A program made the position numbers and the translations under genes. This document shows positions 28,933-46,037 of a stretch of DNA of 64,000 nt, piece after piece; the first letter of the stretch is position 1, and every line of letters starts with the position of its first letter. Below the pieces are notes generated by a model that saw only the letters and a program-made list of their open reading frames with translations, did no database searches and was not told where the DNA came from. The stretch comes from Minisyncoccota bacterium (GTDB lineage: Bacteria; Patescibacteriota; Minisyncoccia; SW-4-49-11): positions 10,762-74,761 of the forward strand of contig JAULZW010000001.1 of the NCBI GenBank assembly GCA_032117235.1. Reading direction: 5' to 3'.

Positions 28933-28939
28933 AATACAT

Positions 28940-29932: not shown

Positions 29933-29940
29933 AAAAACTA

Positions 29941-30852: not shown

Positions 30853-30860
30853 GTCGCTCT

Positions 30861-31835
30861 ATGGAATTAAGTATTTTTCTCAGACCAATTATTGAAGAAG
30901 CAGAAAGTAGAAATATACATTGTTATGTTTTTTCAGATGTTAGTAAAAATTATGCGGTTTTAAGATATAATGATCATGAGGAGTTTATCAACAATACATT
31001 GATAGATAATATAGGTGCAGCTACTAATTCAATGTTAAAAAATAAATACCTCCAATCAGTGTTACTGAGTCAAAAAGGATATAGTACCCCTAAGACTCAA
31101 ACAGTGTATTTAGAGAAGTCCAAGAGAGATGAATTTATCCAACAATTTAATCAATTTCCCTGTGTGGTCAAGCCATTAGATAATTATGGAGGGAAGGGAA
31201 TTACTGTAAATATTACAAACCATAGTGATTTAGAACAGGCAATAGAGTTGGCTTGTGGTATGAGCAATAGATCTAGATATAAAGATAGATGTATAGTACA
31301 GGAAATGCTTCAAGGAGAAGAGTATAGAATTTTAGTAATTGGCAATAAAGATGTATTCTTAGTCAAGAGAACCCCTTTTCAAGTTATAGGAGATGGTAAA
31401 CACTCAATACAAGAGTTGATTCAAATTTATAATGAAAATACAATTAATAGTATAAGGAAGGTAGAAATAGGCTCTAGTATAAAGCATATATTACAAGAAA
31501 AATCTCTAGCATTAGATTATATACCTCAAGATAAAGAAATTATCAAGTTAAGTTATAAAGCCAATTCTCATGATGGGGGATCTTCTCAGGAACTGACTGA
31601 TTTTTTACCAGAAGGACTGAAGCAATTTGCAATTAGACTATCCTTAGATTTTAAATTACCAGTTGTAGGAATTGATATTATAACTTCTAATCTTGTCAAT
31701 CTAAATCCATACATTCTGGAGCTCAATATAAATCCAGGGTTAACAATACATAATAACCCAACATTTGGAGTACCAACTAAGCCTCAAAAAGCTATTATTG
31801 ATCTTTTATTCCCAGAGACAAAAAAATTTAAATAA
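30861..31835 (+). CDS. ATP-grasp domain ligase, cyanophycin-synthetase-N-domain/RimK-like. Paralog 1.
   Basis: CVVKPLDNYGGKGITVNI...EYRILVIGNKDVFLVKRTPFQVIGDGKHSIQELI...ANSHDGGSSQELT...VVGIDIITSN...LELNINPGL. Confidence 0.7.
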   Translation: MELSIFLRPIIEEAESRNIHCYVFSDVSKNYAVLRYNDHEEFINNTLIDNIGAATNSMLKNKYLQSVLLSQKGYSTPKTQTVYLEKSKRDEFIQQFNQFPCVVKPLDNYGGKGITVNITNHSDLEQAIELACGMSNRSRYKDRCIVQEMLQGEEYRILVIGNKDVFLVKRTPFQVIGDGKHSIQELIQIYNENTINSIRKVEIGSSIKHILQEKSLALDYIPQDKEIIKLSYKANSHDGGSSQELTDFLPEGLKQFAIRLSLDFKLPVVGIDIITSNLVNLNPYILELNINPGLTIHNNPTFGVPTKPQKAIIDLLFPETKKFK

Positions 31836-31847
31836 TTATACCGCTAT

Positions 31848-32822
31848 ATGAAATTGAGTATCTTTCTCAGACCAATTATTGAAGAAGCAGAAAGTAGGGG
31901 TATAGATGTATCTTTTTTTTCTGAATTTCGTACAAGGTTTACAATATTATCATATGAGGGACATACAGAGTTTATAAGAAATACATTAACAAATCATGTA
32001 GGTTCGGTTACTAGTTTAATGTTAAAAAATAAATACTTTCAATCAGTTTTATTGAGTCAAAAAGGATATAATACTCCCAAGACTCAAATAGTGTATGTAG
32101 AGAAGTCTAAGAAAGATAAATTTATCCAAAATTTTAATCAATTTCCCTGTGTGGTTAAGCCTTTAGATAACTATGGTGGAAAAGGTATTACTGTAAATGT
32201 TACAAATTATACTGATTTAGAAAAAGCAATTGAACTTGCTTGTGGTATGAGTATTAAATATAAAGATAAATGTATAGTACAGGAAATGGTTTATGGATCT
32301 GAAGAATATCGAGTGTTGGTAATTGGGAATAAAGATGTGTTTTTAGTTAAAAGGACTCCATTTAGAGTTATTGGAGATGGAAAACATTCAATTCAAGAAT
32401 TGATTAAAATATATAATGATAATGTGGTTAAAGTAGACAAAACAAGATATGTTCAGATAGGAGAAAGTATAATGAATATCTTACAAGAAAAGTCTCTAAA
32501 ATTAGATTATATCCCTAAAGATAAAGAAATTATAAAACTAAGCTATAAAGCTAATTCACATGATGGTGGGTCATCAGAGGAGATGACTAAATTTTTGCCA
32601 GATACATTAAAACAATTTGCTATTAAATTATCTCTAGATTTTAAGTTGCCAATTGTGGGCATTGATATTATAACTTCGGATATAAACAATCCTAACCAAT
32701 GTGTTTTAGAGTTAAATCTTACTCCAGGATTGAATATACATGTAGCTCCGACATTTGGAACACCAACTAAGCCTCAAAAGGCTATTATAGATCTTCTATT
32801 TCCAGAAACCAAATCGATATAG
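31848..32822 (+). CDS. ATP-grasp domain ligase, paralog 2. A tandem duplicate of 30861..31835.
   Basis: Same length (324 aa) and about three-quarters identical to paralog 1. The first dozen residues are nearly identical and there is a long identical DNA stretch at the 5' end. Confidence 0.7.
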   Translation: MKLSIFLRPIIEEAESRGIDVSFFSEFRTRFTILSYEGHTEFIRNTLTNHVGSVTSLMLKNKYFQSVLLSQKGYNTPKTQIVYVEKSKKDKFIQNFNQFPCVVKPLDNYGGKGITVNVTNYTDLEKAIELACGMSIKYKDKCIVQEMVYGSEEYRVLVIGNKDVFLVKRTPFRVIGDGKHSIQELIKIYNDNVVKVDKTRYVQIGESIMNILQEKSLKLDYIPKDKEIIKLSYKANSHDGGSSEEMTKFLPDTLKQFAIKLSLDFKLPIVGIDIITSDINNPNQCVLELNLTPGLNIHVAPTFGTPTKPQKAIIDLLFPETKSI

Positions 32823-32824
32823 TA

Positions 32825-34252
32825 TTATTTCCTCGGATCAATAATAAATCTTTTTAAATCCTGTTTCCCTAATAAAAAAAGGTATTTTAAATGAGATCGA
32901 TTTACTATTGAACATGCAATTTCACTCATCTCATCTCCAATTTTTACTGGGATTTTTATAAAGGGTCTAACTGTATATCCGTTTCCAGCCTTTATAATAG
33001 CAACTTTTTTGAGGAGATGCGGAGTATCTTGTGCCTTTAAGTTAATATTTATTGTATCAGTTAATTTATTTAGAGCATTATATTCTATATCCTCCGGTAT
33101 ATTCAAAGCTTTAAATTCTTTTAATACTTCTCCGTAGCCAAGTTTAATGAGAAGAGCTTCGTCTATACTGGAGGAGTCTGCCCCCGTATCCACCTTGGCT
33201 TCTATAGTTTGTTTTTGATTGTCTTTGCCAAATAAGGTGATTTCCTCAATCAAACCTATAACTTGTCGCCCAGTAATTTCCTCGATTTCTTCTTCAATTT
33301 CTCCTCCAAATAAATCTTTTGCGAGTCGAATAGCTCTTTTTACCGTTTTTACTTTAAGTCCTTTTACTTTTTGTAATCTTTCTTTGAGTGGGGCGAGATT
33401 GGCAATTTGAATAGCAAGTCCTGGTCGGGCATTAGCTTCCAAGACTACTGGTCCAGCATCGCGGTCTAGGGCGATATCTACTCCTGTAAAGCCTAGATTT
33501 GTCACATCAGCAGTGCGAATGGCTATTTCTAAAATTGTATTCCAATATGGTATTCTAATTCCAGCTAAATTGATTTTGGTTCCTGGTATGGTGTCTATGA
33601 ACTTCTCTCGCATAATGGCATTAGTGGTTACTCCAGTGGCCATATCTATTCCCACTCCAATTCCTCCTTGATGTAGATTAGCCTTTCCATCTGATTCTTT
33701 GGTCGGAATTCTAATCATTGCCATTACGGGAATACGATTGAATACAATGACACGAATATCAGGTATACCTTTATAGGCTAAATGCTTGAAAGATTTATTG
33801 AGTTTAATTCGCTCTTCAAAAAAAGCTATATCAGGGCTATTAGTACGTGAATAGGTTCCATCAAGAATATTGCTAATATGATTATGTATCATTGTCTCAC
33901 TAAGTTTAACTCCTTTGGTTTTGACCCATTGTCTTTCTCCGTCGGTAGTTTTCTTTTTATGTTCTCCAAAAATTACCACAATTCCTTCTCCTCCAAATCC
34001 AGAAGTAGGCTTCAATACAAAGCTTTTTGGTAATTTATTATAATCAAAATTATTTAATTTCTCATAAGACCTTACCGAAGCGATTAGTTTTGGGGTCGGT
34101 ATATTATTTTGCTGTAAAACTTTCTTAAATTTGATTTTATTATCTACTAATTTGACCCATTTACGATAGTTATAAGGCTTGATAAAGATAAGGTTACGGG
34201 CATTCATCCCGAGTATTTTTTGACTAAATACGAATGCTTCTAGCCAATTCAT
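32825..34252 (-). CDS. Fusion protein: N-terminal ATP-grasp ligase (alpha-L-glutamate-ligase-related, sugar-transfer-associated type) plus a C-terminal retropepsin-like aspartic protease domain (RimB / putative ATP-dependent zinc protease family).
   Basis: The N-terminal part has ...FVLKPTSGFGGEGIVVI..., ...ANLHQGGIGVGIDMATG... and ...GVDIALDRDAGPVVLEANARPG. The C-terminal part has ...KVDTGADSSSIDEALL... and ...LLGKQDLKRFIIDP, the D-T-G-A signature. Confidence 0.7.
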   Translation of the reverse strand: MNWLEAFVFSQKILGMNARNLIFIKPYNYRKWVKLVDNKIKFKKVLQQNNIPTPKLIASVRSYEKLNNFDYNKLPKSFVLKPTSGFGGEGIVVIFGEHKKKTTDGERQWVKTKGVKLSETMIHNHISNILDGTYSRTNSPDIAFFEERIKLNKSFKHLAYKGIPDIRVIVFNRIPVMAMIRIPTKESDGKANLHQGGIGVGIDMATGVTTNAIMREKFIDTIPGTKINLAGIRIPYWNTILEIAIRTADVTNLGFTGVDIALDRDAGPVVLEANARPGLAIQIANLAPLKERLQKVKGLKVKTVKRAIRLAKDLFGGEIEEEIEEITGRQVIGLIEEITLFGKDNQKQTIEAKVDTGADSSSIDEALLIKLGYGEVLKEFKALNIPEDIEYNALNKLTDTININLKAQDTPHLLKKVAIIKAGNGYTVRPFIKIPVKIGDEMSEIACSIVNRSHLKYLFLLGKQDLKRFIIDPRK

Positions 34253-34255
34253 AGT

Positions 34256-34975
34256 TTATTGATTGCTAATGATTTTACGGAATCGGATATATTCAGAGAT
34301 GCGGAGTCCTTCATAGCGCCCAATTAATATAATTCCCGCAAATACAATCAAAATTACCCATGGATTATAGAAAACTAAATCTCGTAGCCGAGTAGTGGTC
34401 ATAATTAAGTTTCCAATTGAAGCTAGAATCAGGGTTTCTAAGGATAGGATGACAGCGGTACGATAACCTTTTTCCATTTGAGCATTGATGAACTTCTCTA
34501 CCAAGGTAATAATAATCAAAATCTGGTAAATTGAGGCTTGTACAAACATTGTGCTGTCTGAAAATATACCCCAAACCAAACTCAAAAACATAGATAAAGC
34601 TGTAATTGATAGTATTAAAGCCATTTTCGGTAAATATAAAATACGAACTTTGCGAAGTAGAAATCTGACTACTGAAGCCACTAGAAGTGAAACTACAAAG
34701 ACGCTAACTCCATATTTGAAGCCAATTTCAGTCAAAGCAAATGTTATAATTAGTGGTGTATAAATACCAAAAGCTTTAATTCCCACAATTTGTCGGGCGG
34801 CTACGATAAATCCTGCCATAATCGGGAACATTAATAGAATGTCTATTGTTTCACGTGGCACATCATTTCTTAGAAGGTAATCAAAGAATATATCCATATA
34901 CTTATTAAAACTAATTGAGATTATTGTATTATTTTGATATAGTATAACATAACAATATATTTTGACTAGTGGCAA
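34256..34975 (-). CDS. Seven-transmembrane membrane protein of the kind associated with RimK-like ATP-grasp systems (7TM_transglut-like). The true start is probably the internal Met at about 34897.
   Basis: 239 aa with about seven hydrophobic helices. The listed start overlaps the divergent sufB start. Confidence 0.5.
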   Translation of the reverse strand: MPLVKIYCYVILYQNNTIISISFNKYMDIFFDYLLRNDVPRETIDILLMFPIMAGFIVAARQIVGIKAFGIYTPLIITFALTEIGFKYGVSVFVVSLLVASVVRFLLRKVRILYLPKMALILSITALSMFLSLVWGIFSDSTMFVQASIYQILIIITLVEKFINAQMEKGYRTAVILSLETLILASIGNLIMTTTRLRDLVFYNPWVILIVFAGIILIGRYEGLRISEYIRFRKIISNQ

Positions 34976-36359
34976 ATTTATGGACCGATCCGTATACGAT
35001 AATTATAGCTTACATAAGGGAAAATTTCAAACTCAACCTGGATTAACTCGAGAGGTAGTTGAAGAGATTTCTAAACAAAAAAATGAGCCATCTTGGATGT
35101 TGAAAAAACGGCTCAAAGCCTTTGAATTATATCAGCAAACTGCTTTACCGAATTGGGGTCCTAGTTTGGATGGATTAGATTTGGAGCAAATTATTTATTT
35201 TAGTAGGCCAGATGCAGATGAATCTAAGACTTGGGATGATGTGCCAAAGGATATACGAGACACTTTTGATAAACTTGGTATTCCAGAAGCCGAAAAACAG
35301 GCTCTAGGAGGTGTGGGAGCTCAATATGACTCAGATATGATATATCATAATCTCAAGCAAGACTTAAAAGATAAAGGGGTTATATTCGAGAATATGGATA
35401 CCGCATTACAGGAATATCCCGATTTGGTCAAAAAATATTTTATGACTCAATGTATTCCTATCAATGATCATAAATTTATTATGTTACATGCGGCAGTATG
35501 GAGCGGGGGGACATTTATTTATGTGCCAAAGGGGGTAAAAGTAGAATTGCCATTGCAAGCCTATTTTCGGATGAATATGGAGGCTGGAGGGCAATTTGAA
35601 CATACTCTTATTATTGCAGATGAAGGCTCAGAGCTTACCTATATCGAGGGATGCTCTGCTCCAAGATGGAATGTCTCAGCTCTTCATGCAGGAGGAGTGG
35701 AAATATTTGTGCATAAGGGTGCTACAGTTAAATATATTAGTATTGAAAATTGGAGTAAAAATACCTATAATCTCAATACCAAAAGGGCTCTCGTGGATGC
35801 TTATGGTACTATTGAGTGGCTAAATGGGAATATGGGAAGTGGTGTGACAATGTTATATCCTTGTAGTATATTGAGGGGAGAATATGCTCGCTCAGATAGT
35901 CTCGGGATAGCCTTTGCAGGAGAGGGGCAAGAGCAAGATACAGGCTCAAAGGTAATACATGCAGCCCCTTATACTAAATCCACAATTAGTGCTAAAAGTA
36001 TTTCTCAAGATAATGGAGTGTCATCATATAGGGGTTTAGTTAAAATAACTCCCAAAGCTATTGGTAGTGAATCTCATATTGTCTGTGATGCTCTCCTAAT
36101 GAATGATGGGGCTAAATCAGATACTTATCCAGTGATGCAAGTAGAGACTAGTGAGGCTCAAATTGGGCATGAAGCTCGGGTAGGGCGGGTAGGGTATGAG
36201 GAAATATTTTATTTAATGAGTAGAGGGATGAGCGAAGCGGAGGCCAGGAAAATGATAGTAAATGGTTTTATAGAGCCGGTAGTAAAAGCCTTGCCTCTCG
36301 AATATGCAATTGAGCTAAATCGCCTGATTGAACTTGAAATTATAGATTCAGCAATATAA
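34962..36359 (+). CDS. sufB: Fe-S cluster assembly protein SufB. The true start may be Met-7 at 34980.
   Basis: 465 aa with conserved SufB core and C-terminal regions. Confidence 0.9.
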   Translation: MTSGKFMDRSVYDNYSLHKGKFQTQPGLTREVVEEISKQKNEPSWMLKKRLKAFELYQQTALPNWGPSLDGLDLEQIIYFSRPDADESKTWDDVPKDIRDTFDKLGIPEAEKQALGGVGAQYDSDMIYHNLKQDLKDKGVIFENMDTALQEYPDLVKKYFMTQCIPINDHKFIMLHAAVWSGGTFIYVPKGVKVELPLQAYFRMNMEAGGQFEHTLIIADEGSELTYIEGCSAPRWNVSALHAGGVEIFVHKGATVKYISIENWSKNTYNLNTKRALVDAYGTIEWLNGNMGSGVTMLYPCSILRGEYARSDSLGIAFAGEGQEQDTGSKVIHAAPYTKSTISAKSISQDNGVSSYRGLVKITPKAIGSESHIVCDALLMNDGAKSDTYPVMQVETSEAQIGHEARVGRVGYEEIFYLMSRGMSEAEARKMIVNGFIEPVVKALPLEYAIELNRLIELEIIDSAI

Positions 36360-36360
36360 T

Positions 36361-37017
36361 ATGGCAATTTATACAACTCAAATAGAAACATCTCATCAAT
36401 ATCTGGTTATAAAATCTAGAAATCAGGAAAAATTAAATTTATTAGATTTAGATCCAAATACTATTATACATATTGCCGAACAGGCTGAATTAGAATTAAA
36501 TATAGGAGCTGGAGAATATCATCATAATTTACATATAATTGTAACTAAAGGAGCTAAATTAAAAATTTTAGAACAAGAAAATTGGAGTGGGACTATAAAC
36601 TGGACTATTGATTTGATTGAACCTTATTCAGAAATAGAATATGTTACCAGATTAGAAGCTAAAAATAAGTCTAAAAATATAATTAAAGTAAATCATAAAG
36701 GCTCTTATACAATATCCAAAATAAATTCTAGATATTGTGTTATAAGTCAAAATAAACTCATACAGCATACCATTATAGATATCCCCAAAGCTATTAAACA
36801 TTGCCAAGCCAGTCAATCGGCGGAAATTTTATTATTAACTAACCGTCCACAAGTCCAAGTCATCCCCGAGCTCAGAGTGGCCACTGATAATAGTAATGCC
36901 AGTCATGGAGTATCTATCCATCCAATTCGAGAGACAGATATATTCTATCTAATGGCTCGAGGCATTAGCCAGACAAAAGCAATAAAAATACTTAAAAAAG
37001 GCTTTTTGGAGACGTAG
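36361..37017 (+). CDS. sufD: Short SufD-like Fe-S assembly protein.
   Basis: 218 aa immediately after sufB. The C-terminal ...HGVSIHPIRETDIFYLMARGISQTKAIKILKKGF resembles the SufB/SufD C-terminus. Confidence 0.6.
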   Translation: MAIYTTQIETSHQYLVIKSRNQEKLNLLDLDPNTIIHIAEQAELELNIGAGEYHHNLHIIVTKGAKLKILEQENWSGTINWTIDLIEPYSEIEYVTRLEAKNKSKNIIKVNHKGSYTISKINSRYCVISQNKLIQHTIIDIPKAIKHCQASQSAEILLLTNRPQVQVIPELRVATDNSNASHGVSIHPIRETDIFYLMARGISQTKAIKILKKGFLET

Positions 37018-37094
37018 GGGGTTTGTGGTATACTTATAAAATAAATAGTAATATTAATATGAATATAGAAAAAAGAAATTAGTATAGTCATCCT

Positions 37095-38459
37095 GTGTTT
37101 GAAGGTGAAAATATAAATAAAGGCAATGAGTTAGCTCATGAAATAGAAGAAAGTTCGACAAAAGATATTAGAAGATTTACTCGTTCTTATTCTTCGGTTG
37201 AGAGAACAGCTAAAGCTCAAGAATTAAGAGGTATCCCAAAAGATCAAAGAGAAGAAGAACTTGAAAGTTTTTATAAAGAACAAGAAGCAATAAGGGTAGA
37301 ATTCTTAGAAACTTTAGACGAGAGACAGGTTGAAGATATCATGAATCAGTACGATGTAATTTTTACTCATGGAATACCCTTAGACTCAATGAAAAACACA
37401 TCACATAATAATACCGTAATTGATACAGAGAGTATAAAACTAGAAACAAAAATAAAATTAATTTTAGGTTTTCAGCCAACAATTTCTGCTTGTGTTATAA
37501 AAGTTTCTGAACAAAGTCCAAATGCTCATTATTATAAATTTGGTTTAATGATTGGTAGAGGAACAGTTATGTTGGCTCATAATCGAGATACTGCAACTGT
37601 TGCTGAAAATATGTATTCTAGAAGATTAAAAGATGGTGAGTATAATAAAGATGGAGAAAAAAATTCATATATAAATGGTAAAAATTATAGTTTTTTTCCT
37701 GAAAATATGGTAAATCATAGTATACAAACCAATATACAAGAAAATATAAGACAAGCTATCGAGGAACCAGTTGGTGGTAAGTCTGGAGATGCTAGAAATG
37801 AAGTGGTAATTGAGAATCCAGATGCTATTGGTTTTTACATAGATCTTAACACTGAAATAGGTGATGTAGAATTAATTCAAATTGTAAAAATTGCTAGGAA
37901 TGTTGGGTTGCCAATTTTTGGCTTAAAAAATGGACGAATTTTTTCTTTACAAGACAATGGTCAGGAAGAAATTAATCTTGATGAATTGCATATATCTGAA
38001 GAGTTAACAGAACAAAAAAGATTAAAATATATTGAGGATACAATTCAGGACAATGTTTTTGTTGGTGGAAAAATCCCAATAGAGGCAGAAAGGAGAATAA
38101 GTTCATTAAAGTCTAAAGTAAAAGAAATATCGGGAATAAAACAAGAGTCTTTAGTACAACAAGGATCAGAGGAATTATATCCAGATTTTGAGTATTTAGA
38201 TGGTAACTATAATATGTTTTACAATGCAGATTTAATGTTAAAAGGTACTCATCTTAGATATGACTCAATACATAAAAATGGGAATGATATAGTTAGTTTT
38301 TTTACTCAGATGGGTGTAAGAGAATCTGCTATGACAAAAGTAAAAACACTTTTTGAAAACAAAGACCTTTCAGAATGTAGAAAGTTAATAGATAGTTTTT
38401 TAAATAAATTTTATGAAGCAAAAAAATTATTAGCTCAATGGAAGCAATCTAAAGATTAA
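37095..38459 (+). CDS. Hypothetical acidic protein (ORFan), inserted within the suf operon.
   Basis: 454-aa ORF. No recognisable motif. Confidence 0.5.
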   Translation: MFEGENINKGNELAHEIEESSTKDIRRFTRSYSSVERTAKAQELRGIPKDQREEELESFYKEQEAIRVEFLETLDERQVEDIMNQYDVIFTHGIPLDSMKNTSHNNTVIDTESIKLETKIKLILGFQPTISACVIKVSEQSPNAHYYKFGLMIGRGTVMLAHNRDTATVAENMYSRRLKDGEYNKDGEKNSYINGKNYSFFPENMVNHSIQTNIQENIRQAIEEPVGGKSGDARNEVVIENPDAIGFYIDLNTEIGDVELIQIVKIARNVGLPIFGLKNGRIFSLQDNGQEEINLDELHISEELTEQKRLKYIEDTIQDNVFVGGKIPIEAERRISSLKSKVKEISGIKQESLVQQGSEELYPDFEYLDGNYNMFYNADLMLKGTHLRYDSIHKNGNDIVSFFTQMGVRESAMTKVKTLFENKDLSECRKLIDSFLNKFYEAKKLLAQWKQSKD

Positions 38460-38484
38460 ATATGAATAATATAATTAGAAAAAA

Positions 38485-38505
38485 CACCCCGCTTAGTGCG
38501 GGGTG
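38485..38505 (-). terminator. Intrinsic terminator, mainly serving the minus-strand gene 38493..38780.
   Basis: CACCCCGC-TTAG-TGCGGGGTG hairpin. It is preceded on the plus strand by AAAAAA, which is a T-run on the minus strand. Confidence 0.6.
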
Positions 38506-38780
38506 GATGATATGTATTGTCTGATGTCTCGCCATTCTTTCAATAGAATGGTTGGTGGATTTATAGGGAATCCATTTTGATTACAGGGTAATATAAAGTA
38601 GCAATTTTCGCTACCAATTAACTCTCCATTTATCCCATAGATTTTGGAGTTAGTGAAGTTCTGATGGTATTTCCAATGAGAACTGAGACTTATGGTTAAG
38701 TCAGGAGGATTAATTCTATTTATTGTTTCAAATATAGCAAATAAATTTGGCCGAATTTCAAGAAATTGTTGATAGTTCAA
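38493..38780 (-). CDS. Hypothetical small protein.
   Basis: 95-aa ORF with a terminator at its 3' end. Weak support. Confidence 0.35.
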   Translation of the reverse strand: MNYQQFLEIRPNLFAIFETINRINPPDLTISLSSHWKYHQNFTNSKIYGINGELIGSENCYFILPCNQNGFPINPPTILLKEWRDIRQYISSTPH

Positions 38781-38837
38781 AAATTATCTTCAAATGAAAA
38801 TATACAATACCATAAAAAAACAATATTAGCAAGTTTT

Positions 38838-40085
38838 TTATTTTATAGATATTCCCAAAACTGTTTGGGCTGCAATTTGAAAATGCAATCGATTAAACTT
38901 CTCAGCTTGAGGATCTCCTGATGGATGATATTCTCTAGCTAGAAATCCAACTTTCTCTGGACTAACTGACATCTTGCTATTTCTATAACCTGCAGACGCA
39001 CGAGCCATTTCACTTGCTTGAGTTTTGATCTGTATTTTGTGAATTCTTAAAATTTGTGACAAATCTATATCCTTTTCTTTTAAATCAGCATCAATATCAT
39101 CTAATTTTATATTACGATTCACTCTAATAATATCTCCCAAAATATGGTCTCTAGGGTTTATAAGAGAATTTTCAACCTGTTTCATCATATGATCTAATAA
39201 AGTTACTCTATACTCTTCTATCACTTTATATATTGCTAATTGAATCTCCTGATCAGTAATAGAATCTACTAATTCAGGATTGAGAGTAATTGCTATAGTG
39301 TCAGCTTTGTGCCGGGTATCCCCAATTGAAAATTTAGGTATGTCTATGGTAGCTAGCACTCCTGGAACTTGGGATAATTCTTCAGTGACTATTCTTTCTG
39401 ATTCCGCGCCTTTTAAATCATCTTGAGTAGTTGTTTCTTCCCCTTCAGTTAAAAACCTAGCATTCCCTTGAGTTATTTTACTGGACCTTTCTTTATATCT
39501 AGCAAATTCTGGGTTTTCGGTATCTGGGATTATTAAATCACTAAGATATTCTATTGACATCTCTCTTCCCTCAGCAAATCCAAAGCCATATTTTTTATCA
39601 ATTCCAGTTTCAGCTATTATCTCTAAAATCTTGGTATAGTAAATATCTATAATAGCCTTAATATCTGTTCTGGCAAGACTAGATTCTGATTCATCTAAAG
39701 AATTTAAAAGTGTCTGATATGTACGATATCTTTCTAATAAAAATTCCACAGAATCATCTTCTAATTCTAAACTAGTTTCTAGATGGTAGGAGTTTAATTC
39801 TTTACAGACATCATATAATTTTTTAGATGATTGAATCTCTTCTAATTTTTGTTTCAAGACATGGACTTGTCTTTGAAGTCTGGGATTAGAAGATTGCTTT
39901 TCAGAGGAGGTTATAAGTTGTTGTAATGCCTCAGATTCCTTTTCTTTTTGAAAGGATATATTATCTAAATCTTGTCTTAAATCTCCACCCCTTCCCTCAG
40001 CGGTTGAAGTATATATCTCATCTATAATTTCCGTCAATGAATATTCAGAAAATAGTTTTTCTTGTATGGGTCTTAGGGTTTCCAT
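38838..40085 (-). CDS. Hypothetical acidic, coiled-coil-rich protein (ORFan), inserted within the suf operon.
   Basis: 415-aa ORF. No recognisable motif. Confidence 0.5.
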   Translation of the reverse strand: METLRPIQEKLFSEYSLTEIIDEIYTSTAEGRGGDLRQDLDNISFQKEKESEALQQLITSSEKQSSNPRLQRQVHVLKQKLEEIQSSKKLYDVCKELNSYHLETSLELEDDSVEFLLERYRTYQTLLNSLDESESSLARTDIKAIIDIYYTKILEIIAETGIDKKYGFGFAEGREMSIEYLSDLIIPDTENPEFARYKERSSKITQGNARFLTEGEETTTQDDLKGAESERIVTEELSQVPGVLATIDIPKFSIGDTRHKADTIAITLNPELVDSITDQEIQLAIYKVIEEYRVTLLDHMMKQVENSLINPRDHILGDIIRVNRNIKLDDIDADLKEKDIDLSQILRIHKIQIKTQASEMARASAGYRNSKMSVSPEKVGFLAREYHPSGDPQAEKFNRLHFQIAAQTVLGISIK

Positions 40086-40139
40086 ATAATTTTATATTTA
40101 CTATACACTTATTATATCATATATTATATAATAGAACAT

Positions 40140-41342
40140 ATGAAGTTAATTGACAATATTAGACTTAAATTTGCTCCATTGAGTCAGGATATTATTTATC
40201 TTGATTCGGGGGCGTCCGCGCTTACGCCTAATGTGGTTTTGGATGCGATGAATGTGTATTACAGGGAATATCGCTCTAATATTCACAGAGGGTTATATGA
40301 TCTTTCCGAGAGGGCAACTACAGAATATGAGAATGCTCGCGATACAATAGCTCAATTTATTGGGGCGAATAGACCTGAGGAAGTGATTTTCACCCATGGT
40401 ACTACGGATGGTATCAATATGTTTGCAGAATTATTGCAAGATAGATTTGAGGCGGGCCAGAATATTATTATCCCAGTAACTGAACATCATAGTAATATGC
40501 TCCCTTGGCGAGAATTTGCTCGCAGGCAAGGATTAGAAATACGGTATATTGGATTAAGGGGAGGAGTGCTAGATGAGTCAGCTCTTCTTGCTGCTATTGA
40601 TGAGAATACAGCTGTGGTCGCAATAGGACATATATCCAATGTATTAGGGTCAATTCATAATGTGAAAGTAATTGCAGAAAAAGCACATCAAATGGGAGCT
40701 TTATGTATTGTAGATGGAGCTCAGGCTATGGCTCATATACCGATTTCTGTGTCGGAATTAGGAATAGATGCCTATGCTTTTTCTGGGCATAAATTATATG
40801 GACCAACCGGAGTCGGTGTTTTATGGGTGAATTATGAGCTTTTAGAAGGCTTGACACCTACTCGCACGGGTGGGGATATGGTGAATTATGTAAATTTAGA
40901 AAGTATAGAATATGCTCCTATTCCACAAAGATTTGAGGCAGGAACTCCTCCTATTGCGGAGGTAGTCGGTTTAGCTCAGGCTATATCTTGGCTTCAGGAG
41001 CTTGGCTGGGATTATATTCAATATCATGAACAAGATTTAGTACAATATATCTGGGAGCAAGTATCACTTAGGTCTTGGCTCAAGGTTTTAGGAGGAGGTC
41101 AAACCGAAAAAAGAATTGCTTGTTTTTCTTTTGTTATAGATAATATTCATACTCATGATATTGCTTATTTGCTCGCGAAAAAAAATATTTGTGTTCGTGC
41201 AGGACAGCATTGTGCCAGTGGGATTACTCAAGTCTTAGGTATTGCGGGAAGTACTAGAGCTACTTTTGGGATCTATAATACTAAAAGTGAAGTTGATATG
41301 CTAATGAGGTCTTTAGATCAAATTTATTTTAAATTTCAATAA
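40140..41342 (+). CDS. sufS: Cysteine desulfurase SufS (class V aminotransferase).
   Basis: 400 aa. PLP-lysine context ...FSGHKLYGPTGVGVL... and the catalytic Cys loop ...RAGQHCA.... Confidence 0.9.
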   Translation: MKLIDNIRLKFAPLSQDIIYLDSGASALTPNVVLDAMNVYYREYRSNIHRGLYDLSERATTEYENARDTIAQFIGANRPEEVIFTHGTTDGINMFAELLQDRFEAGQNIIIPVTEHHSNMLPWREFARRQGLEIRYIGLRGGVLDESALLAAIDENTAVVAIGHISNVLGSIHNVKVIAEKAHQMGALCIVDGAQAMAHIPISVSELGIDAYAFSGHKLYGPTGVGVLWVNYELLEGLTPTRTGGDMVNYVNLESIEYAPIPQRFEAGTPPIAEVVGLAQAISWLQELGWDYIQYHEQDLVQYIWEQVSLRSWLKVLGGGQTEKRIACFSFVIDNIHTHDIAYLLAKKNICVRAGQHCASGITQVLGIAGSTRATFGIYNTKSEVDMLMRSLDQIYFKFQ

Positions 41343-41344
41343 TT

Positions 41345-41704
41345 ATGGAGGACATTTATAGAGAATACATTTTGGACTTGTACCGAAACCCTTTGAATAA
41401 AGGTGTTTTGGATAAAACAACTCATAAATTGCATGGACATAATGCTAACTGTGGAGATGATATTTGGCTTTATCTAATACTAAAAGATGAAATAATTCAA
41501 GATATAACTTTTGATGGAGTAGGTTGTGCTTTATGTATTGCTGGGGCTTCTATTACAACTGATAAGTTGAAGGGAATAAGTATCCAAAAATTATCTCAAA
41601 TTTCAACTGAAGAACTATATAATTGGTTAGGTATAGAGATGGAGTTAACTCGCGTCAAATGTGTCACTTTGGCTTTACGAACAGCGCAGAAAGTGTTAAA
41701 ATAA
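41345..41704 (+). CDS. sufU: SufU/IscU-like Fe-S scaffold (NifU N-terminal domain).
   Basis: ...NPLNKG...GHNANCGDDIWLYL...DGVGCALCIAGASI.... Confidence 0.85.
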   Translation: MEDIYREYILDLYRNPLNKGVLDKTTHKLHGHNANCGDDIWLYLILKDEIIQDITFDGVGCALCIAGASITTDKLKGISIQKLSQISTEELYNWLGIEMELTRVKCVTLALRTAQKVLK

Positions 41705-41725
41705 TACAAATTTGTACTAATATAT

Positions 41726-42433
41726 ATGCTAAAATTACAAAACATTACAATTACCAAAGATGACAAAATCATAGTCTCTGATATTTCTCTTGAGGTTAAA
41801 AAGGGAGATATACATTATCTTATGGGTCCTAATGGCAGTGGTAAAAGCACTTTAGCTTTAGCTATCATGGGTTATCCAGAATATACCTTTGAAGGTAAAA
41901 TTACTTTTGAAGGACAAGATATTTCTAATCTTTCTCCTGACAAAAGAGCTAAATTAGGTTTGTTTTTATCTATGCAATATCCTCCTGCTATCAAGGGAGT
42001 GACTATTTTGAGTTTACTTAAAAATGCTTATCAAGCCATCAATGGCAAGGTGAATGTCTTAGAATTTAGAAAAAGAGTTCTGGTTGAGGCAGAAAAGTTA
42101 GGTCTGAAAGATATTATTTTATCTAGATATGTCAATGATGGTTTTTCTGGAGGTGAAAGAAAAAGATTAGAATTATTGCAATTGATTATCTTGAAGCCCA
42201 AATTATCCATATTAGACGAGCCAGATTCTGGTCTAGATATCGATGTTATTAAATTAATGTCAGCTGAATTACATAGATTATCTAAAGACGGGATGACATT
42301 TTTGATCATTACCCATTTGGGGCAATTGGTTGCTAAGCCAGACAAAGTGACGGTTATCAAAAATGGTGCTGTCACAGAAGAGGGTGGAGTAGATATATTG
42401 TCCAAATTGCAAAAAAAAGGTTTTAATGATTAA
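41726..42433 (+). CDS. sufC: Fe-S assembly ATPase SufC.
   Basis: Walker A GPNGSGKST, ABC signature FSGGERKR, and Walker B ILDEPDSGLD. Confidence 0.9.
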   Translation: MLKLQNITITKDDKIIVSDISLEVKKGDIHYLMGPNGSGKSTLALAIMGYPEYTFEGKITFEGQDISNLSPDKRAKLGLFLSMQYPPAIKGVTILSLLKNAYQAINGKVNVLEFRKRVLVEAEKLGLKDIILSRYVNDGFSGGERKRLELLQLIILKPKLSILDEPDSGLDIDVIKLMSAELHRLSKDGMTFLIITHLGQLVAKPDKVTVIKNGAVTEEGGVDILSKLQKKGFND

Positions 42434-42442
42434 ATAATTACA

Positions 42443-42730
42443 ATGATTATCAAAGATGAGGTTATAGCAGTGTGTCAAACTATTCAAGACCCAGAGGTTC
42501 ATTTAGACATTTATACTTTAGGCCTGATTTATAGTATAGAAATAACTTTGGAACAAGAAATCAATATACTAATGACTTATACCACCCCACTTTGTCCTTT
42601 TGGAGGAAAAATGCAAGAAGAATTAAAAACTGCGTTAACTATCTTGAATCCAAAAGCAGTTAATATTGAGCTTACTTTTAACCCTCCTTGGAAAGTTAGT
42701 AACGAATTAAGAGAGGCTCTAGGAATATAA
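42443..42730 (+). CDS. sufT: SufT / DUF59 (MIP18 family) Fe-S assembly protein.
   Basis: ...IQDPEVHLDIYTLGLIYSIEI...MTYTTPLCPFGG.... Confidence 0.75.
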   Translation: MIIKDEVIAVCQTIQDPEVHLDIYTLGLIYSIEITLEQEINILMTYTTPLCPFGGKMQEELKTALTILNPKAVNIELTFNPPWKVSNELREALGI

Positions 42731-42736
42731 ATTTGT

Positions 42737-42764
42737 TTGACAAAACCATACCTAGTGTTATAAT
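42737..42764 (+). promoter_or_regulatory. Consensus sigma-70 promoter, TTGACA-N16-TATAAT, upstream of the Cys-rich surface-protein gene.
   Basis: Exact hexamers with a 16-nt spacer. Confidence 0.6.
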
Positions 42765-42792
42765 ATTTTTATAATTTTAAACTAAAACTAAT

Positions 42793-44577
42793 ATGATAAA
42801 ACAGTTAAATAAAGACCCAAAACTGTTTATAATACTTGCATCGTGCGTTTCCATAGGTCTGATATCATTTGCAGTTAGTTTTAATATTGTATATGGACGG
42901 GGAGCAACATCGTCTGCAGGTCGATGTGGATCTGGATATACTTTTACACCTTCAACAGGATGGTGGCGCGGAGGGACTTGTACTTGTACAACTAAAACAT
43001 CGTGTAATAAGTGTGGGCAATGTAATACTTGTGGTAGGGCCTATGAAACGACTAGTAGATGGGGAGGAAGAACTTGCGTTAGTCCTACCTGTTCTGCTCC
43101 AGTTTTACAGCCACCTCAGCCTTTTGAATGTAATAATATGGATGTTTCATTTGTAGAAAGATTACCACAGTATAATATTGGCGGACTCCATGCTTCAATA
43201 ACAACTAATGGTAAATATACAGTCAAAGGTATGACAACTCATGGCTCACAGAGCTGTGATGATATCAAACAAGCTATAGCAAACTTTAATTATGATTCCT
43301 GTGCCTATCCAAGTAGTGTCAGTGAAGAGCGTCTAGAAAGAGTGAGTTGGAGCTTTAACAATATGAGAACAGTCAAGGATTGTGGCAACGTGAAATCTAA
43401 ACAACCCTGCCCTGCAGATACTGGTTTTACAACATTAGGTTCAACCTCAAGTCCATATAGTGCATTTACAGAACATAGGACATCATTGCAAAATTCCGCT
43501 CCTAATCAATATAGATGGGGTGACTTGCGTAGTTATGGAATATCCTCCGACAATGCCAAGCAAGGACCATATCCAGTTACTAAATTCTATAATACTAACA
43601 ATTATGCAACATTAAATTTAGCATTCAATTATGAGATGGCATACAGTGGTACTGATGGTCATGAGGCACCATGTTGGTCTACTGGCCCATCTTGGAAAGA
43701 ATGTCATTATGTTCAATATTATAAATATATTCCAAGAATAAAACAACCAAATATAAAAATAGATTCATACATTATAAGTCATAGAGATAGAACTCAAGCT
43801 ATATATAGAAATAGTCCAATTAGAAAATCTTGGGAAATTGAAAATGCTAATGCTGGCAGTTGCAATATAGAAACAAAAAATGATTCAGGAGCAGTAATTG
43901 ATTCGCTTTCTAGAAGCGGATTAAACATTGACTTTAAACAGAGTCCTCAAACTGTAGATTTTTTACCTATTAATGGCGCAACAGGACAATATCTTGAAAA
44001 TGTAGATAAAAATGCAAACTATACAATTGGATATGATCCAAATAGAATACAGCCAGGTGATTATACTAGTAATTTAACCTGTAATCTTAGTATAAACTGT
44101 TCATTAGGTAGTAGTGGTGATGATTGTAAAAGATCATATCCAGATAATCCTTATAATAATCCAATAACAGTTTCTGTTAATAAAGACTTTACAATATCTG
44201 AAGATAAAAAAGTTAGTCTAACAGCCTCAGCCAACCCATCAATAGTTAGCAGAAGATCTACAAGAACTAAGATAGAAGCTAGAGTAACAGGCGCAACATC
44301 TGGAGACAAACATAAGTATAAAATTACAAAAATTCCAAAAGGGTATCAGTTGCTTTCTAATGCAGAAATAGTTACAAATGCTAATGCTGGGGGAAATTCT
44401 ACAGTATCTTGGGATGTGGGATTATATATTGATCCTAAAACAAATTCATCTGAGGCAGAAATAGGTACTTCAGAATTTGTTATAGAAATGATTGATGAGC
44501 CATATGACAACCTTTATACTGCTACCGCAAAAGTAACTTATCTTGGAACTAGAGATGTAAGAGAAGTTGCTCCATAA
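42793..44577 (+). CDS. Cys-rich secreted or surface protein.
   Basis: 594 aa with an N-terminal signal/anchor and a Cys-dense stretch (GRCGSGYTF...GGTCTCTTKTSCNKCGQCNTCGRAY...CVSPTCSAP). No recognisable family. Confidence 0.55.
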   Translation: MIKQLNKDPKLFIILASCVSIGLISFAVSFNIVYGRGATSSAGRCGSGYTFTPSTGWWRGGTCTCTTKTSCNKCGQCNTCGRAYETTSRWGGRTCVSPTCSAPVLQPPQPFECNNMDVSFVERLPQYNIGGLHASITTNGKYTVKGMTTHGSQSCDDIKQAIANFNYDSCAYPSSVSEERLERVSWSFNNMRTVKDCGNVKSKQPCPADTGFTTLGSTSSPYSAFTEHRTSLQNSAPNQYRWGDLRSYGISSDNAKQGPYPVTKFYNTNNYATLNLAFNYEMAYSGTDGHEAPCWSTGPSWKECHYVQYYKYIPRIKQPNIKIDSYIISHRDRTQAIYRNSPIRKSWEIENANAGSCNIETKNDSGAVIDSLSRSGLNIDFKQSPQTVDFLPINGATGQYLENVDKNANYTIGYDPNRIQPGDYTSNLTCNLSINCSLGSSGDDCKRSYPDNPYNNPITVSVNKDFTISEDKKVSLTASANPSIVSRRSTRTKIEARVTGATSGDKHKYKITKIPKGYQLLSNAEIVTNANAGGNSTVSWDVGLYIDPKTNSSEAEIGTSEFVIEMIDEPYDNLYTATAKVTYLGTRDVREVAP

Positions 44578-44614: not shown

Positions 44615-45370
44615 ATGGTAAAAAGTAAACATTTTTTACTATCGTTGATATTAATATTTCTTTGTACAATATGCATATATTTAACCACTATATCATATAG
44701 AATAATTCAAAAATTACAGTTTTATCCAGAATGTAAGAATTACAGTTATGAGGAAAGAAAGAATTTTTTAAGCAAAATAACATATATTCATGGGACTATC
44801 ACTTCTATAAAAGACGATAAGATAGAAGTATATGTAAACTATAATCCGAGAAATAGATGGAAATGTTCACAAATGGAATCGCCATATAAAGATTATTTGG
44901 GATTTACTAAAAAGACATATTCAGTTTATTTAAATCATAGTACTCCAATTTACTCAATGTATGAGCCTATTAGTGAAAGTGTTCCAAACGACCATACTCC
45001 CAGAAAAAACCCATCTCCTGAAGTAGGGATTCCATCAGAAGATGAATTTATGAGTGAGTCATATAAAAAAGAAGACTTAATAATAGGATATAGGGTCGCT
45101 GTTCTGGCATCAAAACCAGTTCTTAAGCAAGATTCATTTGATGCTGACTTATTATTAATTTATCCAGAAAGAGATATAACATATTCTGGTATATTATTTA
45201 TAATAATATTTATAATGATAGGATTAGGAGGTTATTATACAATAGAAATTATTACTAATATACTTTTTTATCTTACAAAAAATAAAAATATAAACCTATT
45301 TGCTACAATAATAAGACCAATGATTGTAGTAGGCTTTTTTGTATGGTATTTTTTATCACATTATATTTAA
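44615..45370 (+). CDS. Hypothetical membrane protein.
   Basis: 251 aa with an N-terminal transmembrane helix and C-terminal hydrophobic helices. Confidence 0.45.
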   Translation: MVKSKHFLLSLILIFLCTICIYLTTISYRIIQKLQFYPECKNYSYEERKNFLSKITYIHGTITSIKDDKIEVYVNYNPRNRWKCSQMESPYKDYLGFTKKTYSVYLNHSTPIYSMYEPISESVPNDHTPRKNPSPEVGIPSEDEFMSESYKKEDLIIGYRVAVLASKPVLKQDSFDADLLLIYPERDITYSGILFIIIFIMIGLGGYYTIEIITNILFYLTKNKNINLFATIIRPMIVVGFFVWYFLSHYI

Positions 45371-45373
45371 TTT

Positions 45374-45970
45374 ATGCCTCTACTTCAAAATTTCTTAGAA
45401 AATATATACAACTTTCTTCCCATTGATAGCAATCTTATGTCTGAGTATATTATAAAACAAATAATAATTTTTATAGTTATTAATGTATTTATATTATTAA
45501 TTCAAATATTAATAATGAAATCTAAAATAAAAGAAACATTATATATAACTATTCCAATTCTTTTAATTAATAAAATATTAATTTTACCCATTCTTAATGA
45601 TATAGTATTTATAACCCATGTATCATTAATGTATGTTATAGCATTTATGATTATATCCACTCTATTAGATATGGAAAGCTTTAAATTATATATGAATGAT
45701 TACAAAAAATTATGTAAATTTTATCAAATCATCTCTATAATTTTACAAATACTTATAATAATTATTCTTATAACTCAGCCAATACTAAATCTGCTGACTA
45801 TAATTGGAATAGCTTTATATTTAACACCTTTGATAATTGATATTTGTAATTTTAAATCAAATTTTAAAAATACTTTCAAACTAAATATTTATAAATACTC
45901 ATATCAATATCTAATGATAATTATATTGATTCTCGTATCAAAAATAATAGATCCAATACACTTTATATAA
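45374..45970 (+). CDS. Hypothetical, extremely Ile/Leu-rich polytopic membrane protein.
   Basis: 198-aa ORF that is almost entirely hydrophobic. Low-complexity AT-rich coding, so confidence is limited. Confidence 0.4.
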   Translation: MPLLQNFLENIYNFLPIDSNLMSEYIIKQIIIFIVINVFILLIQILIMKSKIKETLYITIPILLINKILILPILNDIVFITHVSLMYVIAFMIISTLLDMESFKLYMNDYKKLCKFYQIISIILQILIIIILITQPILNLLTIIGIALYLTPLIIDICNFKSNFKNTFKLNIYKYSYQYLMIIILILVSKIIDPIHFI

Positions 45971-46037
45971 AACAAAATAAAAGTGTTTTAATATAAAAAG
46001 TTCTTGATCTTAAATATGGACTAACAATTAATTTTAC

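What the first reader, a model, noticed from the sequence alone, without database searches (positions are those of the whole stretch)
37095..40085. Three ORFan genes inserted into the middle of the suf Fe-S assembly operon
sufB and the sufD-like gene are separated from sufS-sufU-sufC-sufT by a roughly 3-kb block. The block holds a 454-aa acidic protein on the plus strand, a 95-aa ORF with its own terminator on the minus strand, and a 415-aa coiled-coil-rich acidic protein on the minus strand. None has a recognisable domain. This looks like an insertion of foreign or lineage-specific genes into a normally contiguous operon, with opposite-strand transcription running into the suf genes.
Basis: seen in the sequence. 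Interest (0 to 1): 0.55.

Follow-up and report, generated by a model that had tools for sequence, protein, structure and literature searches.

The report
Orphan operon and swappable gene in suf
The three unknown genes that split this candidate-phylum bacterium's iron-sulfur assembly cluster are two things: an old gene pair found only in this small clade, always beside sufS, and one recently acquired cassette in a slot where relatives carry other accessory genes or none.

Summary
Three real genes with no recognisable domains lie between sufB-sufD and sufS-sufU-sufC-sufT in a ~30% GC Parcubacteria/Paceibacteria genome. They are not one foreign insertion.

**p415 and p95 (415 and 95 aa, minus strand).** This looks like a two-gene operon restricted to a small clade. 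In all 17 distinct related loci examined, p415 sits divergently next to sufS, even where the protein has drifted to 27% identity. The 54-56 nt promoter region it shares with sufS is conserved. A conserved intrinsic terminator ends the pair. More distant homologs lie outside suf, and p415 has no conserved cysteine, so it is probably not a Suf component.

**p454 (454 aa, plus strand).** This is a true strain-variable insert in a hotspot just downstream of sufD. In relatives the slot is empty or holds methyltransferase, NUDIX or hydrolase genes.
- Two near-isogenic strains differ by exactly one 1,696-nt unit: p454 plus a 195-nt duplicate of the sufD 3' end.
- The cassette is 92-100% identical between lineages whose adjacent genes are only 49-62% identical.
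- The window copy has lost the distal repeat.

The locus is also a recombination mosaic. All three functions remain unknown. A confident p415 model has no Foldseek neighbour in PDB or BFVD.

The parts
34962..36359 (+). sufB (465 aa)
   Evidence: Pfam SUFBD_core 1e-79 and SufBD_N. It is 92-96% identical in protein across all relatives.
36361..37017 (+). Short sufD-like gene (218 aa). Its 3' end is the target and homology arm of the p454 cassette.
   Evidence: Pfam SUFBD_core 1.5e-25 covering only profile positions 108-232; TIGR01981 sufD 2.3e-26, below the curated cutoff. The window's allele falls into a near group (68-91% identity) and a far group (56-60%) among relatives.
37007..37034 (+). 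Promoter-like element directly after sufD (TGGAGA, 16 nt, TG-n-TATACT). It precedes the cargo slot.
   Evidence: The GTGGTATA core is shared with L011, L012 and L018; L011 and L012 read TGGTATAAT.
37059..37082 (+). Upstream ATG start used by the 99%-identical relative P0001, followed in the window by an in-frame TAG (37080-37082).
37095..38459 (+). p454, the strain-variable cargo gene. It is acidic and of unknown function.
   Evidence: Only 3 clusters, all at least 78% identical, among 5.8 billion proteins, and all in this slot. dN/dS 0.33-0.35. No family, PDB-sequence, phage, viral or plasmid match. The AF2 model is unusable, pLDDT 40.8.
38460..38484 (.). Junction where sister genomes carry about 290 nt more, including a 195-nt duplicate of the sufD 3' end. 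That stretch is absent from the window.
   Evidence: Alignment A2 and the repeats found.
38485..38505 (-). Intrinsic terminator ending p415-p95. The p95 stop codon lies in the loop and the 5' stem encodes the C-terminal ...TPH.
   Evidence: Conserved with compensatory changes (CACCCTGC/GCAGGGTG in L005, L030, L031).
38493..38780 (-). p95, a small conserved partner gene with a TTG start.
   Evidence: Present after p415 in 16 of the 17 related loci; the exception is L019. Alignment A5: invariant Y61-F62-I63-L64, C66, W36 and K37. No Pfam or PDB-sequence match.
38838..40085 (-). p415, a clade-restricted conserved protein: an N-terminal helical bundle (about residues 17-160) and a C-terminal alpha/beta domain (about residues 214-410).
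   Evidence: 31 clusters at 41-100% identity. 17 representatives among 1.84 billion in an exhaustive profile search. AF2 pLDDT 84.9, pTM 0.82. No Foldseek hit better than E = 0.4 in PDB or BFVD. D262 is the only invariant residue across the broad family.
40086..40139 (.). Compact divergent promoter region shared by p415 and sufS. A TATAAT lies 7 nt before the sufS ATG.
   Evidence: 71-80% identical in deep comparisons, where p415 5' coding DNA is 34-65% and sufS 5' coding DNA is 64-73% identical. Promoter-like hexamers on both strands.
40140..42730 (+). sufS-sufU-sufC-sufT, the second suf transcription unit.
   Evidence: Pfam Aminotran_5 2.7e-126, NifU_N 3e-20, ABC_tran 9.3e-23, FeS_assembly_P 8.5e-10.
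40500..40960 (.). Approximate recombination breakpoint inside sufS. Others lie near 36360 (the sufB/sufD boundary) and near 37000-37160.
   Evidence: Sliding-window nucleotide identity switches nearest neighbour.

Best explanation
The 3-kb block has two layers of different age.

**Layer 1: p415 and p95, an old resident.**
- This apparent two-gene operon is found only in a small group of Parcubacteria/Paceibacteria and is inherited vertically.
- It is transcribed away from sufS. The two share a 54-56 nt promoter region that is under selection.
- It ends at a conserved intrinsic terminator that insulates the sufD side.
- In this clade suf therefore runs as two units: sufB-sufD (plus any cargo) and sufS-sufU-sufC-sufT.
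- I infer that p415-p95 is a clade-specific cytoplasmic module. p415 has a helical bundle and an alpha/beta domain with one invariant aspartate. It may be co-expressed with sufSUCT, but it is most likely not part of Fe-S chemistry.

**Layer 2: p454, recent accessory cargo.**
- The short gap between the sufD stop codon and the terminator is a gene-content hotspot. It behaves like a Neisseria 'minimal mobile element'.
- Relatives have the slot empty, or filled with methyltransferase genes, NUDIX, a serine hydrolase or small unknown ORFs.
- In sister genomes the p454 unit measures 1,696 nt: promoter-like element, p454 and a 195-nt copy of the sufD 3' end.
- Shown: near-isogenic strains differ by exactly this unit, and the unit is nearly identical in lineages whose neighbouring genes are highly diverged.
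- Inferred: the cassette spreads by DNA uptake and homologous recombination. sufB/sufD acts as the left arm and the carried sufD 3' copy acts as a portable right arm. It is lost by recombination between the two repeats.
- The window's copy lacks the distal repeat. That route of loss is therefore closed to it, and it may be starting to decay (early TAG).
For: **p415-p95 is conserved in place.**
- The order sufT-C-U-S | p415-p95 | slot | sufD-B holds in L001, L003, L005, L007, L009/L010, L011, L013, L015, L017, L018 and L026-L032.
- It also holds in L019, where the protein is only 27% identical.

**The shared promoter and terminator are under selection.**
- The intergenic region is 71-80% identical where p415 5' coding DNA is 34-65% identical.
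- The terminator is conserved with compensatory changes.
- All three genes show purifying selection.

**p415-p95 is probably not a Suf component.**
- Distant homologs lie outside suf.
- p415 has no conserved cysteine.

**The slot is variable.**
- Empty in 8 loci, p454 in 3, a 120-aa ORF in 2, a 108-aa gene plus NUDIX plus Ser_hydrolase in 1, and a methyltransferase-containing cassette in 3.

**The cassette is a discrete, mobile unit.**
- A 195-nt direct repeat flanks p454 in L011, with the two copies differing at one nucleotide.
- L001 and L011 are 98-100% identical across most of the locus, apart from one 1,696-nt indel. L001 carries the copy-2 junction.
- Between L011 and L013 the cassette is 92-100% identical in all but one 200-nt window. 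The adjacent p95-p415 genes are 49-62% identical and sufS is 68-78%.
- The window lacks the distal repeat.
- The nearest neighbour of the window switches along the locus.
- The definition of minimal mobile elements is taken from PMC3787668.
Against: - No function is shown for any of the three proteins.
- No outgroup suf locus could be retrieved, so it is unknown whether p415-p95 split a once-contiguous operon or the two halves were never joined.
- All comparison loci are metagenome assemblies. Some of the mosaic could be assembly chimerism. L013 contains N-gaps that hide its first repeat copy.
- The 195-nt repeat could equally come from Campbell-type integration of a circle. The 'portable arm' route is inference.
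- The strong conservation of the p415/sufS promoter region, and p415's retention in the slot next to a hotspot with high turnover, argue that a functional link to suf cannot be dismissed.
Confidence: 0.75

Rival explanations
1. One reading: all three genes arrived together as one foreign insertion that broke a contiguous suf operon.
For: The three genes lack any known domain and interrupt genes that form a single cluster in model bacteria (established knowledge of sufABCDSE and sufCDSUB).
Against: - p415 and p95 are present in the slot in relatives that lack p454.
- p415 has diverged in place to 27-35% identity.
- p454 has a separate history, with its own repeat-bounded unit.
- Composition looks like the host's.
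Confidence: 0.03
2. p415-p95 is a clade-specific Suf accessory or regulatory module. It would be co-regulated with sufSUCT through the shared promoter region, with p95's invariant cysteine acting as a sulfur relay or sensor, or p415 acting as an adaptor for SufS-SufU.
For: - The position next to sufS is fixed in every clade member across deep divergence.
- The intergenic region is as conserved as, or more conserved than, the flanking coding DNA.
- p95 has one invariant cysteine (C66) and one nearly invariant cysteine (C60).
- The clade's SufD is unusually short.
Against: - More distant homologs sit beside gatC or a MacB/FtsX transporter.
- L019 has no p95.
- p415 has no conserved cysteine or histidine cluster and no DNA-binding domain.
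- The whole neighbourhood is syntenic, so fixed position may simply reflect shared ancestry.
Confidence: 0.2
3. p415-p95 is a conflict or defence module, such as a toxin-immunity or abortive-infection pair. Together with the adjacent slot it would form a small defence islet.
For: - It pairs a large protein with a small one, and p415 evolves about twice as fast as sufS at non-synonymous sites (identities).
- The neighbouring slot holds DNA-methyltransferase cassettes (presumed restriction-modification) and NUDIX genes.
- The order of secondary-structure elements in the p415 C-terminal domain is compatible with a nuclease-like alpha-beta-beta-beta-alpha-beta core built around invariant D262.
Against: - No PADLOC or PHROG hit.
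- The pair is present in every clade member rather than patchily.
- dN/dS is 0.18-0.29, with no sign of diversifying selection.
- The candidate QxK motif is lost in P0041-P0044.
- No Foldseek match to any nuclease.
Confidence: 0.12
4. The mosaic pattern and the p454 presence/absence are artefacts of metagenome assembly from mixed strains.
For: All loci are metagenomic. L013 has scaffold gaps. Related populations co-occur in the same sample series.
Against: - The p454 unit was recovered independently in L011, L012, L013 and the window.
- The indel equals exactly one repeat period, with matching junctions.
- The window's SufD and p415 proteins are recorded on a longest contig of the same length, 81,949 nt, under both NCBI and Logan source tags.
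Confidence: 0.05

Closest known systems
Minimal mobile elements of Neisseria (Saunders & Snyder 2002; definition as quoted in PMC3787668)
   Same: - A fixed site between conserved genes carries different whole-gene cargo in close relatives.
- The same cargo appears in distant relatives.
- There are no mobility genes.
- Exchange is best explained by homologous recombination at conserved flanks.
   Different: - The p454 unit carries its own 195-nt copy of the left flanking gene's 3' end.
- The right flank (p95-p415) is not conserved between the two lineages that share the cassette.
- The host is a CPR bacterium.
- Transformation is assumed, not shown.
Integrative elements that target the 3' end of a gene and restore it with a duplicated copy (att-flanked genomic islands)
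   Same: In L011, L012 and L013 the insert lies at the 3' end of sufD and is followed by a duplicate of that 3' end (directly seen flanking the insert in L011), leaving the target ORF intact.
   Different: - No integrase or any recognisable recombinase is present.
- The repeat is 195 nt, which looks long for a site-specific att core and better suited to homologous recombination (my own knowledge, not tested here).
- The unit holds a single gene.
Gram-positive-type SUF system (sufCDSUB of Bacillus subtilis, with SufU and SufT)
   Same: The component set matches: SufB, SufD-like, SufS, SufU, SufC and SufT.
   Different: - The gene order is B-D ... S-U-C-T.
- The cluster is split into two units by a non-suf operon on the opposite strand.
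- SufD is only 218 aa.
SufR, the regulator transcribed divergently from sufBCDS in cyanobacteria (from my own knowledge, not checked here)
   Same: A gene transcribed divergently from a suf operon, sharing a compact conserved promoter region with it.
   Different: p415 has no helix-turn-helix domain and no conserved cysteine ligands.

Membership tests
SUF accessory proteins (SufA, SufE, SufU, SufT, SufR) | Match to a curated family model | tested here: not met
   No Pfam or NCBIfam hit for p454, p95 or p415.
SUF accessory proteins (SufA, SufE, SufU, SufT, SufR) | Conserved cysteine (or histidine) ligands or a persulfide-carrier cysteine | tested here: inconclusive
   p415 has one cysteine and it is not conserved. 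p454 has two cysteines, conserved only among 4 near-identical sequences. p95 has invariant C66 and nearly invariant C60.
SUF accessory proteins (SufA, SufE, SufU, SufT, SufR) | Association with suf genes across distant lineages | tested here: not met
   The association holds within the clade. Distant homologs P0045 and P0047 are next to gatC and to a MacB/FtsX ABC transporter.
Minimal mobile element / recombination hotspot | Variable gene content among close relatives between specific conserved flanking genes | tested here: met
   Five slot states between sufD and p95. L001 and L011 are near-isogenic and differ by p454.
Minimal mobile element / recombination hotspot | Same cargo in more distant genomes | tested here: met
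   The p454 unit is 92-100% identical between L011 and L013 in all but one 200-nt window, while the flanking p95-p415 genes are 49-62% identical.
Minimal mobile element / recombination hotspot | No mobility genes in the cargo | tested here: met
   No integrase or transposase domain in p454 or in the other cargo proteins scanned; L027's cargo ORFs were listed but not scanned.
Minimal mobile element / recombination hotspot | Transfer by natural transformation and RecA-dependent recombination | not testable with these tools
   Inferred from identity breakpoints only.
Site-specific integrative element | Encodes an integrase or recombinase | tested here: not met
   No Pfam, NCBIfam or PHROG match for p454. 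An unrecognised recombinase cannot be excluded, because the structure model failed.
Site-specific integrative element | Flanking direct repeats | tested here: inconclusive
   A 195-nt repeat is present in L011 and L012, and a distal copy in L013. It is absent from the window.
PD-(D/E)xK nuclease fold (p415 C-terminal domain) | alpha-beta-beta-beta-alpha-beta core carrying D ... (D/E)xK catalytic residues | tested here: inconclusive
Known anti-phage defence systems | Match to a PADLOC model | tested here: not met
   No hit for any of the three proteins.

The most novel reading that the evidence does not exclude
p415-p95 is a previously unknown partner of the SufS-SufU sulfur-mobilising branch, specific to this candidate-phylum clade. 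It would be co-regulated with sufS through the conserved bidirectional promoter, with p95's invariant cysteine acting as a sulfur relay or sensor. It might also compensate for the truncated SufD.

A second, less likely reading is that p454 encodes an unrecognised recombinase, making the 1.7-kb unit a one-gene mobile element that targets sufD. I put that at about 0.04.
Probability: 0.12. Interest if true: 0.65.

Novelty: new member of a known kind. Interest (0 to 1): 0.36.

Why it matters
- It shows that 'ORFans inside an operon' can hide two different histories: an old lineage-specific operon and a swappable cassette.
- It gives a clean, base-pair-level example of gene gain, loss and lateral spread by recombination in candidate-phylum bacteria. 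Genome dynamics in these organisms are poorly documented because they are uncultured.
- The p415 family is a conserved protein with a confident model and no Foldseek neighbour in PDB or BFVD, so it is a reasonable target for structural and functional work.
- For Fe-S biology the practical point is that suf in this clade is two transcription units, with a conserved shared promoter at sufS.

Tried and rejected
- **p454 as a remote paralog of p415.** hhalign aligned p454 residues 76-106 to p415's most conserved motif, but the match is not significant (Prob 0.1, E about 0.5). Rejected.
- **Ferritin-like or rubrerythrin-like N-terminal bundle in p415.** This was suggested by weak Foldseek hits (E 1-4, rmsd above 13 A). 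There are no conserved ExxH motifs or histidines in the N-terminal domain. Rejected.
- **Phage, viral or plasmid origin.** No matches.
- **Structure of p454.** pLDDT 40.8 from only 4 sequences, so not searched.
- **Outgroup through short SufD homologs.** The search returned only in-clade proteins at 56% identity or more.
- **Weak but recurrent Pfam hits across 17 diverse family members.** None found.
- **Unavailable or failed tools.**
  - A look-up of the window's own record found nothing.
  - The A4 alignment was too diverse for a metagenome scan.
- **Literature.** Two searches for suf in CPR/Parcubacteria returned nothing.
Full report
**Observation.** The window is about 30% GC. It holds ordinary chromosomal genes: MutS/MutL, DnaJ, PNPase, UvrA, a large ATP-grasp cluster, and genes that correspond by position and size to the ribosomal-protein, G6PD, RuvC and PolA genes of relatives.

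Pfam and NCBIfam confirm these flanking genes:

| Gene | Coordinates |
|---|---|
| SufB | 34962-36359 |
| SufD-like, 218 aa | 36361-37017 |
| SufS | 40140-41342 |
| SufU | 41345-41704 |
| SufC | 41726-42433 |
| SufT | 42443-42730 |

The three block proteins match nothing in Pfam, NCBIfam, PHROGs or PADLOC. A GC-rich hairpin followed by a T-run sits at 38485-38505 on the minus strand. Its folding energy is -16.8 kcal/mol, z = -5.6.

All three ORFs are under purifying selection:
- p454: dN/dS 0.33-0.35
- p415: 0.18-0.29
- p95: 0.16-0.35 in diverged pairs
- sufS and sufD, for comparison: 0.14-0.25

**Who else has these genes.** p415 has 31 clusters, at 41-100% identity, among 5.8 billion proteins; the two clusters that carry a source name are labelled Parcubacteria/Paceibacterota. 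An exhaustive profile search of 1.84 billion representatives found only 17. Only 5 of 185,579 GTDB species representatives carry it, all Parcubacteria, Paceibacteria or Minisyncoccia MAGs. p454 has just three clusters, all at least 78% identical.

**p415-p95 is an old resident of the slot.** Every related locus recovered has the order sufT-C-U-S | p415-p95 | slot | sufD-sufB within the same extended synteny. These loci are L001, L003, L005, L007, L009/L010, L011, L013, L015, L017, L018 and L026-L032.
- The small gene was often not called by annotators but is present.
- P0041 matches the profile only in its C-terminal domain (27% identity). Its gene occupies the same place in L019, without p95.
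- The p415/sufS intergenic region stays 54-56 nt long. In deep comparisons it is 71-80% identical, while p415 5' coding DNA is 34-65% and sufS 5' coding DNA is 64-73% identical.
- A TATAAT or TATACT lies 7-8 nt before the sufS ATG in most of the loci aligned.
- The terminator is conserved, with compensatory stem changes. The p95 stop codon lies in its loop.

Minus-strand transcription is therefore insulated from sufD and p454.

**Is p415-p95 a Suf component?** Probably not.
- More distant family members sit beside gatC (P0045), or head an operon with an ABC ATPase and a MacB/FtsX permease (P0047).
- p415 has no conserved cysteine. Across the broad family only D262 is invariant, with H349 and a few hydrophobic or aromatic residues nearly so.
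- p95 has one invariant cysteine, C66, so a sulfur-related role cannot be excluded.
- AlphaFold2 gives a confident p415 model (pLDDT 84.9, pTM 0.82): a bundle of long helices followed by an alpha/beta domain.

**p454 is recent cargo in a hotspot.** The gap between the sufD stop codon and the terminator has five states:

| Slot content | Loci |
|---|---|
| Empty (about 30 nt) | L001, L005, L007, L009, L015, L030, L031, L032 |
| p454 | window, L011/L012, L013 |
| 120-aa ORF | L017, L028/L029 |
| 108-aa gene + NUDIX + Ser_hydrolase | L018 |
| Two DNA methyltransferases around a 301-aa protein, with NUDIX and/or other genes | L003, L026 and L027 (the last two assigned from slot size and ORF lengths) |

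In L011 a 195-nt direct repeat of the sufD 3' end flanks p454, and the two copies differ at one nucleotide. L012 and L013 show the same distal copy.

L001 and L011 are 98-100% identical across most of the locus and differ by one 1,696-nt indel, which equals the repeat period. L001's SufD ends ...GFLEY*, exactly as in the L011 copy-2 junction.

Between L011 and L013 the cassette, including the distal repeat, is 92-100% identical in all but one 200-nt window. The adjacent p95-p415 genes are 49-62% identical and sufS is 68-78%. Identity falls at the end of the distal repeat.

This pattern fits lateral spread by homologous recombination, with sufB/sufD as one arm and the carried sufD 3' copy as the other. 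Loss would then occur by recombination between the repeats. Those steps are inferred, not shown.

The pattern also matches the published definition of minimal mobile elements (PMC3787668).

**State of the window's copy.** Compared with L011 and L013, the window lacks about 290 nt between the p454 stop codon and the terminator, and this stretch includes the distal repeat. Its first ~25 codons differ from those of L011-L013. It has an in-frame TAG 7 codons after the ATG that a 99%-identical relative uses as its start. The p454 structure model failed (pLDDT 40.8).

**Mosaicism.** Sliding-window identity shows that the window's nearest neighbour changes along the locus:

| Window segment | Identity to L001/L011/L015 | Identity to other loci |
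|---|---|---|
| sufB core (35162-35961) | 92-98% (L001, L015) | lower |
| sufD | 60-74% | 73-89% to L007 and L018 |
| p95-p415-sufS 5' (38562-40561) | 82-99% | lower |
| sufS 3' to sufT (40962-42561) | 62-75% | 72-84% to L003, L005, L007, L017, L018 |

Even L001 and L011 show 91-94% patches within otherwise identical sequence. Recombination is the simplest reading. Assembly chimerism is a caveat.

**No sign of foreign origin.** GC content, GC3 and codon usage of the three genes fall within the range of the suf genes. There are no phage, viral-contig or plasmid relatives.

**Verdict.**
- p454 is a true, recent, laterally exchanged insert.
- p415-p95 is a clade-restricted operon that has sat beside sufS throughout the clade's history. 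It is not shown to be a Suf factor.
- The architecture belongs to known kinds: a recombination hotspot plus lineage-specific conserved hypothetical genes.
- The duplicated sufD 3' end as a possible portable homology arm, and the absence of any Foldseek neighbour in PDB or BFVD for the p415 model, are the modestly new points.

Noticed in passing
window 27508-34975: A cluster of four RimK/ATP-grasp ligase genes, including tandem paralogs at 30861-31835 and 31848-32822. It also contains a MATCAP-like carboxypeptidase, DUF3541 and a 7TM_transglut membrane protein. A 7TM_transglut plus ATP-grasp cluster sits directly upstream of sufB in every relative whose contig extends that far. It looks like a system that adds and removes peptide tails.
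   Followed up: partly
window 36361-37017: SufD is only 218 aa and matches just the C-terminal half of the SUFBD core. Relative to the window's allele, in-clade homologs fall into a near group (68-91% protein identity) and a far group (56-60%), while the adjacent SufB stays 92-96% identical. All 63 homolog clusters found are 204-221 aa.
   Followed up: partly
window 40086-40139: A TATAAT lies 7 nt upstream of the sufS ATG, with no room for a ribosome-binding site. A TATAAT or TATACT at this position is seen in most relatives. sufS may be translated from a leaderless mRNA.
   Followed up: no
window 42737-44577: A perfect consensus promoter (TTGACA, 16 nt, TG-n-TATAAT at 42737-42764) drives a 594-aa protein. 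The protein has 21 cysteines, a hydrophobic N-terminus and no Pfam or PHROG match. In several relatives the gene called at this position, just downstream of sufT, differs in size (about 250-612 aa).
   Followed up: no
window 45250-46000: GC content drops to about 18% over a 198-aa, highly hydrophobic ORF (45374-45970). This is the lowest GC in the 28-48 kb stretch profiled.
   Followed up: no
L011 2597-2896: In the strain that carries the intact repeat-flanked p454 cassette, p95 has a TGG-to-TAG change at the conserved W83. This truncates the last 13 residues.
   Followed up: partly
L022 5230-9871: The most distant p415 homolog found (P0047, 431 aa) lies just downstream of a heliorhodopsin gene. 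It is followed at 4-nt and 1-nt spacing by an ABC ATPase and a MacB_PCD/FtsX permease, which suggests an operon unrelated to suf.
   Followed up: partly
L013 9635-9958 and 12094-13713: Runs of N (scaffold gaps) interrupt sufD and fuse the p415 and p95 reading frames. This explains why those genes were not called in that record.
   Followed up: yes
L001 versus L011 (L011 positions 4201-4800 and 6001-6600): Two patches of 91-96% identity, in sufS 5' and in sufC/sufT, lie within an otherwise 99-100% identical locus. They look like short recombination tracts between near-isogenic strains.
   Followed up: partly
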